Of a stretch of DNA of 64,000 nucleotides, positions 38,016 through 50,785 are shown one piece after another. Within the stretch, counting starts at the first letter, position 1. Each line of letters begins with the position of its first letter. This DNA comes from Octopus sinensis (Eukaryota). Made by a program: the position numbers and the translations under genes. The notes under the pieces were generated by a model. It worked only from the letters and a program-made list of their open reading frames with translations, was not told where the DNA came from and did not search any database. The stretch covers positions 2,356,001-2,420,000 of the forward strand of contig NC_043013.1 in NCBI RefSeq assembly GCF_006345805.1, in the 5' to 3' direction.

Positions 38016-38285
38016 TTAATTATAATAAAGGGTTAATTGCAACAAGTTGCTCAAAACCACATACCGAAAATATTAGAAATAGCAGCCAAATAGGTCACTA
38101 TTTGTACTACTAGTAAAAAAGTCTCCACAAACAAACAGAATTTGTAACCCGGGTAACAAATTCTGTTTGTTTGTGGAGACTTTTTTACTAGTAGTAGAAA
38201 TAGTGACCTATTTGGCTGCTATTTCTAATATTTTTGGTATGTGGTTTTGAGCAACTTGTTGCAATTAACCCTTTATTATAATTAA
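38016..38285. repeat. Near-perfect 270-bp palindrome (135-bp arms, no loop, ~3 mismatches) centred on CCC|GGG at 38150/38151
   Basis: Direct arm comparison. The right arm continues to ~38385 with sequence related to the 3' end of the 49.5-50.2 kb element. Confidence 0.95.
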
Positions 38286-39618
38286 TATAATCCTTACCAA
38301 ATATGGTCATTTCCATACCGAAAAAACTACTAGGTGAAATTTATTAATTTTATTAAATTAATTATATTTCACCCTTTATGTGTATTGTATATATATATAT
38401 ATATGATTATTGAATGAAATAGGAACAGGAAATATGGAATGAACTCCATTAGCTTATGGTAGTTTGTGCAAAAAAGGAGTCACTGCACTCGTAGCTAAGT
38501 GCTTATGCAACATCTCATAGCTTCCTCAGAGCCATTAAAGTGAAATCTCTCTCCATCTCTTTCATCATCATGATCATCATCATTTAGCGTCCGCTTTCCA
38601 TGCTAGCATGGGTCGGACGGTTCAACTGGGGTCTGGGAAGCCAGAAGGCTGCACCAGGCCCAGTCTGATCTGGCAATGTTTCTACGGCTGGATGCTCTTC
38701 CTAACGCCAATATATATATATTGGCCGTCCAACCCATACTAGCATGGAAAACGGACGTTAAACGATGATGATGATGATTATATCACATTGCTTTACTGCT
38801 ACAGCCATTGCATTGTACCCCTGTTGATGTATCTAAACTCAGCTCATGTCAGTCAGGTGAAGCTAAAAACAAAAGCAATTAACATTCTACACACTCTATT
38901 TGCAATGTTTGGCATTAAAAAAAAATTCATTGGTATGGCTGTGTGGTAAGACACTTGCTTCCCAAACACATGGTTCATTGTTTAGTTCCTTTGTGTGGCA
39001 CCAGGGGGACAATTACTATGAAGGCCTCAGACAGACCAAAGCCTTGTGTGTTTCTGGCCTTGTGATGTGACTATGGTCAAAGCACTTTGTTTATTAAACT
39101 ATTGATGGGAACTGCAGAAAGAAGAGGAGAAAGAGAGAGAGAGGCAGACACATAGTCTGACCATCTGTAAGTAGCTACAGTTCCTGATACTACAAATAGG
39201 TGTACCTTGAAGAATCACATTCCATATAGCTGCAATTAGGTACTGATGCTAGTGCCATGTAAAAAGCACTGGTGATGGTGCTACGCGAACAAGCATCTGT
39301 AAAGTAGTTGGCATTAGGAAGGGCATCCAACTGTAGAAGCCAAGTCAAAACGGATTATGGACTCCGGTGTGGCTCCTGGCCTTGCCAGTTCCTCTCAAGC
39401 CATCCAACTCATGCCAGCATGGAAAATGGACATTAAATGATGATGATGATGATGATGATGAAAAGACAAATATTACAGGTGAAACTAGGGATACAGTTCT
39501 GCATAGGTTCTATGGATTAAAGCAATGGGCAAATGTCCAAACCTACAGAATCCCTCGGAGCCATGTGATATGGTAAGGAATAAAAAACATCATTACTAGA
39601 CTAAAATAAAATACTTAC

Positions 39619-49474: not shown

Positions 49475-49502
<28 letters not shown>

Positions 49503-49505
<3 letters not shown>

Positions 49506-50185
49506 CTAAGCAATTAAGGGTTTAGCAACGAATTGCCTTACCGCACACCGAATTTAGAAATAGCAGTCAAAGAGATTATAGCTATTTCTTCTACGAAGAA
49601 TTAGATAATTAGATAATAAGAATTAGATAATTCTACCTTACCCAGACTTCTACCTTACCCAGACTGGTGACACAAGCTTTCATTCATACTTTGAATTTGG
49701 TGATACTAGCTGTGGCTTCTAGCTCGCTCTGATACTGAATTGAGTTGGTGCCTTCTAGTATCTCAAAATTCAATATTCAATCATTCATGATTGTTTGTAT
49801 CCTGCGCTGATGAGAGAAGTCTGGGTAAGGTAGAATTATCTAATTCTTATGCTTTCCTAAGACTTGATCTCGAAACGTACGTCCGTAGGTGACTTAAAAC
49901 TGTATGATAGATTGCCGTTAATTTATTCTCTCTTACCTGTTTGTGTTTGCCTTTCAAATGCTGTGTCTTTACTGTGATCTCCCTTTTAGTAGAAGAAATA
50001 GCTATAATCTCTTTGACTGCTATTTCTAAATTCGGTGTGCGGTAAGGCAATTCGTTGCTAAACCCTTAATTGCTTAGTATTACTTAAATTTTCCTCGAAT
50101 GAGGCTTTTACATGCCGAAGACTACTTGGTGTAATTGATAATTATTCCAAATTAATTAATTTCACCCTTCATTGTTATTCATAAC
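49503..50185 (+). mobile_element. Penelope-like terminal-repeat remnant with an inverted 5' partial copy, inserted in (TA)n
   Basis: Perfect 92-bp inverted repeat 49503-49594 / 49989-50080 and a 36-bp inverted repeat 49616-49651 / 49815-49850. Internal hammerhead. No ORF, so the PLE assignment rests on architecture. Confidence 0.75.
49801..49889 (+). ncRNA. Type-I hammerhead ribozyme, structurally complete; predicted cleavage after GUC (C49883)
   Basis: Stem I cctgcg/cgtagg; core CTGATGA; stem II gaga-agtct...agact-tga-tctc; GAAA; palindromic stem III cgtacg; TC. Confidence 0.85.
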
Positions 50186-50286
50186 TATATATATATATAT
50201 CGATGTATGTATATCGATAGCCAGTGAACATACAGCGTAGAAAGAATCCATATATAAATGGATAAAAAATTTATTAGACAGAAAAT

Positions 50287-50424: not shown

Positions 50425-50615
50425 CGTGTGTATGTGTATATATGTATATATATATATATGTATAAGTATATATATATAAGCATATATATATAAGCATATA
50501 TATATAAGCATATATATAAGTATATAATTTATATATAATATATAACTTTATTTTAAGCAGCAGAAAATTCAACAAAATCTGTTCTCGTTGCCGTTCATCA
50601 GACAGTCTGATGAAA

Positions 50616-50653
50616 CTGTCTGATGAACGGCAACGAGAAACTCAGAGTAACAG
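50616..50653 (+). ncRNA. Minimal type-I hammerhead (GUA site) in the right arm of fold-back 50546-50686
   Basis: ctgt-CTGATGA-a.cg.GCAA.cg.a-GAAA-ctcagag-TA-acag. The first stem II pair is an A-A mismatch. Confidence 0.7.
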
Positions 50654-50785
50654 ATTTTGTTGAATTTTCTGCTGCTTAAAATAAAGCATATTACTCTACG
50701 ACTGGTATTTGAGTACTCTTTTTTCCACTTGTTTCACATTTATGTGTTTACTCCGGTATATATATATATATATATATACTATATA

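What the first reader, a model, noticed from the sequence alone, without database searches (positions are those of the whole stretch)
49801..49889. Structurally complete hammerhead ribozyme with an enlarged stem II, inside a young fold-back element
Seen: all core nucleotides (CUGAUGA, GAAA, GUC), a 6-bp stem I, a palindromic stem III (CGUACG) and an unusually long stem II with a ~35-nt loop. It is bracketed by a perfect 92-bp inverted repeat, which suggests a recent insertion. A 36-nt antisense copy of the stem II segment sits 165 bp upstream and could pair with and misfold it. Known: Penelope-like elements carry minimal type-I hammerheads with palindromic stem III that work best as dimers. 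Inference: this is a non-autonomous PLE/retrozyme-like family unlikely to be annotated.
Basis: partly seen in the sequence, partly recalled or inferred. Interest (0 to 1): 0.75.

Follow-up and report, generated by a model that had tools for sequence, protein, structure and literature searches.

The report
Long-armed hammerhead retrozyme with cut-site footprint
This is one scrambled copy of an abundant, protein-free 586-base repeat carrying a conserved hammerhead (self-cutting RNA) motif with an unusually long arm; it is likely spread by Penelope-type retrotransposon enzymes, and some shortened genomic copies begin exactly at the predicted cut, a hint that the RNA likely cuts itself in the animal.

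Summary
The hammerhead, the perfect 92-bp inverted repeat and the 36-nt antisense piece are all there. The element is one copy of a non-coding 586-bp repeat (at least several hundred copies). Copies form head-to-tail arrays, sit in (TA)n tracts and end at two fixed sites. Stems I and II covary across subfamilies, and the whole unit folds strongly on the ribozyme strand only. It works like an animal non-LTR retrozyme mobilised by Penelope-like (PLE) enzymes; the helper was not found. The fold-back is routine (18 of 46 insertions), and the antisense piece is a junction scar unique to this copy, not a family regulator. The '35-nt loop' is predicted to be mostly paired, and long arms are common in this genome. 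New evidence: 5 of 22 truncated copies start at the first base after the predicted cleavage site (p about 0.001-0.01), though reverse-transcriptase stalling is not excluded. Cleavage and circular RNA are untested. This scan found the same kind of element before, on other DNA of this genome.

The parts
49486..49505 (.). Left (TA)n target tract
   Evidence: sequence
49503..49594 (-). Short inverted arm (unit 544 back to about 453), starting at the family's first fixed 3' end; left arm of the 92-bp inverted repeat
49596..49665 (-). Junction scar: four overlapping antisense scraps of domain II (15, 11, 36, 18 nt), joined to the main arm through a 4-nt overlap; unique to this copy
49616..49651 (-). 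36-nt antisense copy of 49815-49850
49662..50122 (+). Main arm, unit positions 123-586 of the 586-bp repeat
49801..49889 (+). Type I hammerhead motif
49814..49871 (+). Long domain II (58 nt; 61 nt in most young copies), imperfect hairpin; 3-nt deletion in this copy at 49818/49819
49875..49882 (+). Palindromic stem III strand; predicted 8-bp intermolecular helix in a dimer
49883..49884 (+). Predicted cleavage site (after C17, unit 347/348); 5 of 22 truncated genomic copies start at unit 348
49989..50080 (+). Right arm of the inverted repeat; ends at the first fixed 3' end (unit 544)
50123..50190 (+). Start of the next unit (1-68) with a hairpin; ends at the second fixed 3' end (PLE-type 'tail')
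50186..50200 (.). Right (TA)n target tract
   Evidence: sequence

Best explanation
This is one two-armed, 5'-truncated insertion of a non-coding 586-bp repeat family whose RNA likely self-cleaves through a long-armed type I hammerhead, probably as a dimer, and is likely copied into (TA)n tracts by a borrowed Penelope-like reverse transcriptase/endonuclease. Shown: family, tandem units, two fixed 3' ends, TA targets, one arm from each fixed end in fold-backs, covariation, strand-specific folding. Inferred: multimeric transcripts pair through the palindromic stem III and cut after C17. The enzyme primes at unit 544 and unit about 61-68, one on each target strand, and the two cDNAs are joined with template-switch scraps; this gives the 92-bp repeat and the antisense pieces here. 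Templates cut at C17 give copies that start at unit 348, while uncut multimers or re-ligated circles give copies that run through the site. The helper is likely a Hydra- or Neptune-clade element. This particular copy is probably a poor ribozyme if transcribed whole.
For: Family: 2413 candidates, 40 scored, full-length hits 96-99% identical; 586-bp period. Of 46 insertions, 18 are two-armed; 55 of 64 3' ends fall in two clusters (about 523-553 and 46-69) and 57 of 64 abut TA. 14 of 18 fold-backs have one end in each cluster and none has both ends in one cluster. Covariation on 26 sequences: 96.1% of cells paired, 3 pairs with changes on both sides, 14 such cells against 3.5 shuffled, slid controls 16-40% paired. 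Core position 7 varies T/A/G/C. In 24 sequences from unrelated long-armed families, stem I pairs 86 of 120 against 58 shuffled and stem II 77 of 96 against 43. A sister family homologous along the unit keeps a hammerhead with the U3-A8 core variant. Circular fold z = -6.5 and -5.9 to -7.2 in three other subfamily units and the sister unit, with the opposite strand no better than shuffles. The minimum-energy dimer is the active-form topology in 5 of 6 variants, one of them (L003) without the closing pair of stem II. Truncated copies: 5 of 22 start at unit 348 and all five run 348 to 544/553; p = 7e-4 under a uniform model and 8e-3 against the local downstream rate. Intact Hydra-type (717, 727 aa) and Neptune-type (775-883 aa) ORFs exist in the genome. 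A fold-back fragment of the 727-aa family's terminal repeat lies about 360 bp away in a TA tract (98%).
Against: No cleavage or RNA data. No helper shares DNA with the unit, and PLE fragments beside family copies were separate insertions. RNAalifold on the MAFFT alignment did not recover the hammerhead fold. The covariation rests on about three events in related sequences, and core and stem III were fixed by the search pattern. 21 of the first 100 hits (counted by eye) have A instead of G at 10.1, yet amplified recently. Starts at +3, +7 and +9 are also over-used (11 of 22), as stalling at stem I or TA microhomology would give; one of the five +1 copies is ambiguous (p = 0.006-0.04 with four). 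No 5' end at 348 among 28 in the 46-insertion sample, which is biased to intact ribozymes. Within-array identity did not favour a single circular template (13 of 30). In the window copy the base of stem II has pairing probability 0.09 as a monomer against 0.98 in L002. In the literature, only 1 of 9 Xenopus retrozymes cleaved in vitro (10.64898/2026.07.22.740005), and hammerhead cleavage was dispensable for PAc insertion in vitro (PMC11167929).
Confidence: 0.72

Rival explanations
1. The repeat is a PLE-mobilised passenger whose hammerhead is a conserved fold that seldom cuts. Copies come from uncut read-through multimers, and the 5' ends near the site mark reverse-transcriptase stalling at stem I.
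For: 11 of 22 starts lie at +3 to +9. The A10.1 subfamily is young and common. PAc uses unprocessed RNA (PMC11167929). An earlier scan note on another family found no excess at the cut site (e1-9589730, untested here).
Against: Unit 348 lies inside stem I and has no TA microhomology, yet holds 5 of 22 starts against 6 over the 21 positions upstream. The catalytic core is kept, with a compensatory U3-A8 variant, across divergent families.
Confidence: 0.18
2. These are only the truncated terminal repeats (pLTRs) of a rare autonomous PLE that I did not sample, not a separate retrozyme.
For: Truncated pLTR-only copies dominate true PLE families, e.g. window 50613-50756. Only the best 40 of 2413 candidates were scored.
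Against: Unit 586 joins unit 1 seamlessly in arrays of several units in every subfamily examined. No linked ORF was seen in any family locus examined. The whole unit folds as one structure.
Confidence: 0.07
3. The antisense piece and inverted repeat are a selected switch that controls the ribozyme, or the element is a DNA fold-back transposon.
For: The predicted fold of the whole insertion is dominated by the antisense duplex.
Against: The junction is unique in the genome. Other copies carry different scraps or none, 28 of 46 insertions have one arm only, and arm lengths vary.
Confidence: 0.03

Closest known systems
Animal non-LTR retrozymes (Cervera and de la Pena 2020, PMC7229834, parts 2-3 of 6 read; Li, Clavereau and Pollet 2026, 10.64898/2026.07.22.740005, parts 1-3 of 5 read)
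   Same: Non-coding tandem repeats with one type I hammerhead per unit, GC under 50% (38%), highly self-paired RNA, weak stem III predicted to need dimers, proposed PLE origin.
   Different: The unit is 586 nt (150-450 in the 2020 paper; within the 51-972 range of the preprint). Domain II is 58-61 nt instead of a 4-bp stem with a small loop. Most copies are truncated or two-armed. Circular RNA is not shown.
Hammerheads of Penelope-like elements (Cervera and de la Pena 2014, PMC4209133, parts 1-2 of 4 read)
   Same: Type I, short palindromic helix III, enlarged helix II, U3-A8 core variant in the sister family, copies in opposite orientation close together.
   Different: Helix II there is 6-8 bp; here about 11 bp plus a further paired extension. 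No linked ORF.
Hydra-clade PLEs (Craig et al. 2021, PMC8557442; passages, section 11, supplement part 2 of 59 read)
   Same: (TA)n targeting, inverted 5'-truncated arm, a tail at one end only, and a relaxed 10.1/11.1 pair in many File S2 rows. File S2 also lists PLE-X1_sMoe (not a Hydra element) with a 9-bp stem II and a loop of about 35 nt, a precedent for an enlarged domain II.
   Different: No ORF. No DNA similarity to the Hydra families sampled here. Published Hydra domain II regions are much shorter.
PAc of Anolis (Frangieh et al. 2024, PMC11167929, parts 1-2 of 4 read)
   Same: Two internal reverse-transcription start sites that define genomic 3' ends; AT-rich targets; both strands cleaved and extended.
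   Different: PAc is autonomous, and no RNA reads began or ended at its cleavage site. Here some genomic copies start at the site.

Membership tests
Type I hammerhead ribozyme | Core CUGANGA / GAAA / UH | tested here: met
   position 7 is the variable one
Type I hammerhead ribozyme | Stems I and II with covariation | tested here: met
   few independent events, and RNAalifold missed the fold
Type I hammerhead ribozyme | Stem III | tested here: inconclusive
   pairing probability at most 0.04 as monomer; 8-bp helix in predicted dimers
Type I hammerhead ribozyme | G10.1-C11.1 pair | tested here: met
   G-C in this copy and in 56 of 68 distinct family sequences; A-C in 11
Type I hammerhead ribozyme | Loop 1-loop 2 tertiary contact | not tested
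   no analysis run
Type I hammerhead ribozyme | Self-cleavage | not testable with these tools
   indirect only: 5 of 22 truncated copies start at +1
Non-LTR retrozyme | Tandem units, each with a type I hammerhead | tested here: met
   (e.g. L008, L063, L065)
Non-LTR retrozyme | No protein coding | tested here: met
   longest stop-free stretch 51 aa (+), 72 aa (-)
Non-LTR retrozyme | Highly self-paired monomer, GC under 50% | tested here: met
Non-LTR retrozyme | Expressed as circular RNA | not testable with these tools
   only contigs available; the head-to-tail joint also stands in run X15 and in genomic tandems
Non-LTR retrozyme | Target site duplication | tested here: inconclusive
   both flanks are (TA)n
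Autonomous Penelope-like element | RT + GIY-YIG ORF between pLTRs | tested here: not met
PLE-type insertion | Fixed 3' ends with tail, 5' truncation, inverted arm, (TA)n target | tested here: met
Derivative of a Hydra- or Neptune-clade PLE | DNA homology to the pLTR of an autonomous family | tested here: inconclusive
   none in 42 GIY-YIG loci or 50 Hydra-type loci; the sample is a small part of about 5000 candidates each

The most novel reading that the evidence does not exclude
A hammerhead with a 60-nt structured arm, invisible to Rfam and to published descriptors, cuts in vivo, and its cut RNA is reverse-transcribed into the genome. The 5' ends of truncated copies would then record ribozyme cleavage in the germ line and show that PLE enzymes use both cut and uncut (or circular) retrozyme RNA, primed at two fixed sites on opposite target strands.
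Probability: 0.4. Interest if true: 0.62.

Novelty: new variant of a known kind. Interest (0 to 1): 0.4.

Why it matters
Whether PLE-associated hammerheads cut in vivo, and whether cutting matters for transposition, is open: rates in vitro are low and PAc does not need it. A young family with copies that start at the cleavage site makes this testable by counting breakpoints in the genome. Long-armed hammerheads are missed by Rfam and by the 7-17-nt spacer used for core searches in PMC8557442, so retrozyme counts are probably too low. The specific antisense-switch idea does not hold.

Tried and rejected
Intron inside the hammerhead: one search showed a 72-nt GT..AG skip in contigs of two runs. 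The same 301-nt contig lies colinear over its full length on a divergent subfamily copy, and no genomic copy has the exact skip; rejected. Expression: no RNA holder listed; contigs of guessed RNA runs cover all 30 bins but are not shown to be RNA, so they are not used as evidence. Helper search: GIY-YIG loci, flanks of 20 long-armed loci, unique upstream DNA of L152, sister family, Hydra-type families and adjacent fragments; no link found. Pfam gave no family for the two Hydra-type proteins and RVT_1 plus GIY-YIG for the Neptune-type one; the Hydra label rests on the RWK, DKT and CxCX5C motifs described in PMC8557442. Single-circle test by within-array identity: inconclusive. Whole-window Rfam: the 150 listed matches of 291 held no hammerhead and were mostly microsatellite-driven miRNA matches. 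A sequence look-up in earlier findings returned nothing. No breakpoint control elsewhere in the unit could be run, and 82 of 182 matches were not listed. Lunse et al. (PMC5785218) is not held; I saw only a review's passage on it. Supplements of the 2026 preprint were not seen and could list similar families.

Full report
Observation. All features are present at the stated places. Stem I is 49801-49806 / 49884-49889, the core boxes are at 49807-49813 and 49872-49874, the palindrome at 49875-49882 and C17 at 49883. The inverted repeat is perfect over 92 bp and the 36-nt antisense piece is exact. The motif folds better than shuffles (z = -2.8). Rfam finds nothing in 49600-50000 at E up to 10. Domain II (58 nt) is predicted to be a long imperfect hairpin, not a stem with an open 35-nt loop.

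The family. A search of the own genome gave 2413 candidates; the full-length hits among the 40 scored are 96-99% identical. The repeat unit is 586 bp and occurs head to tail. The core plus stem III pattern has 401 exact hits with T at position 7 against 0 controls (98 of the first 100 listed are this family, by eye). It has 254 more hits with other letters against 4 controls (many families). Older subfamilies reach 72-90% identity. The unit has no ORF and 38% GC. The genome is likely that of an octopus (inference: a motif of Hydra-1_Obim has 18 hits).

Anatomy of insertions. Among 46 independent insertions (60 loci, duplicates removed), 18 have arms in both orientations. 55 of 64 3' ends fall at unit 523-553 or 46-69, 57 of 64 abut (TA)n, and 5' ends are scattered. 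14 of the 18 fold-backs have one end in each cluster and none has two in the same cluster. I had seen the two ends myself, but the one-from-each reading was prompted by earlier scan notes and then tested. The window copy fits: a short arm from unit 544, a main arm from unit 68 back through 586 to 123, and four antisense scraps of domain II at the junction. That junction occurs once in the genome. So the 92-bp repeat is a routine second cDNA arm and the antisense piece is a scar. If the whole insertion were transcribed, the scar would be predicted to destroy stems I and II. These hallmarks match PLE insertions (PMC8557442 Fig. 2 legend; PMC11167929). A fold-back piece of the terminal repeat of an intact 727-aa Hydra-type element sits about 360 bp downstream in the same kind of tract.

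Is the ribozyme under selection? On 26 aligned sequences 96.1% of cells pair and three pairs show double changes; slid controls pair 16-40%. The events are few and the sequences related, and RNAalifold did not find the fold unaided. Among 68 distinct family sequences the stem extends to about 11 pairs around a 2x2 internal loop. In 24 sequences of unrelated families with the same stem III and long arms, stems I and II pair far above shuffled partners (0 of 2000 shuffles). A sister family homologous along the unit keeps a hammerhead with the U3-A8 core, a variant described in PMC4209133. The whole unit folds as a circle at z = -5.9 to -7.2 on the ribozyme strand only. Predicted dimers form the active topology through an 8-bp stem III in 5 of 6 variants (one without the closing pair of stem II); the exception is the window copy, whose 3-nt deletion favours a shifted stem. 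Against strict need for the canonical form, 21 of 100 listed copies have A at 10.1 (by eye); Hydra hammerheads in File S2 of PMC8557442 often lack this pair too.

Footprint of cleavage. I searched for copies whose 5' end abuts a TA tract within 30 nt around the site. The first 100 of 182 overlapping matches reduce to 23 places; one was an intact copy and was dropped, leaving 22. Starts were: unit 348, the first base after C17, five; 350, four; 354, two; 356, five; and six over the 21 positions upstream. All five 348 copies are single arms ending at 544 or 553, as run-off on a cut RNA would give. The probability is 7e-4 under uniform starts and 8e-3 against the downstream rate; with the one ambiguous copy removed it is 0.006 and 0.04. 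Stalling at stem I and TA microhomology can explain +3 to +9 but fit +1 less well.

Helper. Intact Neptune-type and Hydra-type ORFs are present, but none shares DNA with the unit. PLE fragments beside family copies are separate insertions. Hydra is favoured only by TA targeting, the relaxed 10.1/11.1 pair, a 717-aa family with a domain II of about 30 nt and earlier notes; Neptune also targets microsatellites.

Novelty. The element works like an animal non-LTR retrozyme and meets the sequence-level criteria; circular RNA and cleavage are untested. It is not an autonomous PLE. Searches found no paper on cephalopod retrozymes, on such long arms in animal retrozymes, or on genomic starts at the cleavage site; subscription papers and some supplements were out of reach. 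An enlarged domain II has a precedent in PLE-X1_sMoe. The scan has reported similar long-armed elements of this genome many times. Verdict: new variant of a known kind, interest 0.4.

Noticed in passing
window 38016-38390: Fold-back insertion of a sister family (556-bp unit, 2265 candidates) that shares the tail and carries a U3-A8 core hammerhead in fuller copies.
   Followed up: partly
window 50550-50756: Fold-back fragment of the terminal repeat of an intact 727-aa Hydra-type PLE, with a minimal hammerhead at 50620; 98% identical to L248.
   Followed up: yes
window 50325 (- strand): Another short hammerhead-like core with a small stem II.
   Followed up: no
L244:4147 and related loci: The 717-aa Hydra-type family carries a hammerhead with C instead of U at core position 4 in most copies seen, and a domain II of about 30 nt.
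   Followed up: no
L101:674-4374: Young Neptune-type PLE with a separate upstream 479-aa frame and no canonical hammerhead found by my pattern in its 3' region.
   Followed up: partly
L110, L114, L119, L142: A subfamily in which the apical part of domain II has grown by short duplications (about 64 to 82 nt) while the base stems stay paired, showing that arm length is free to change.
   Followed up: partly
L206:1500-1660 (- strand): The tail of this family lies directly beside the 3' end of a Hydra-1-like element in one TA tract.
   Followed up: no
L288: Symmetric fold-back in which both arms start at unit 329 with a TA tract between them.
   Followed up: no
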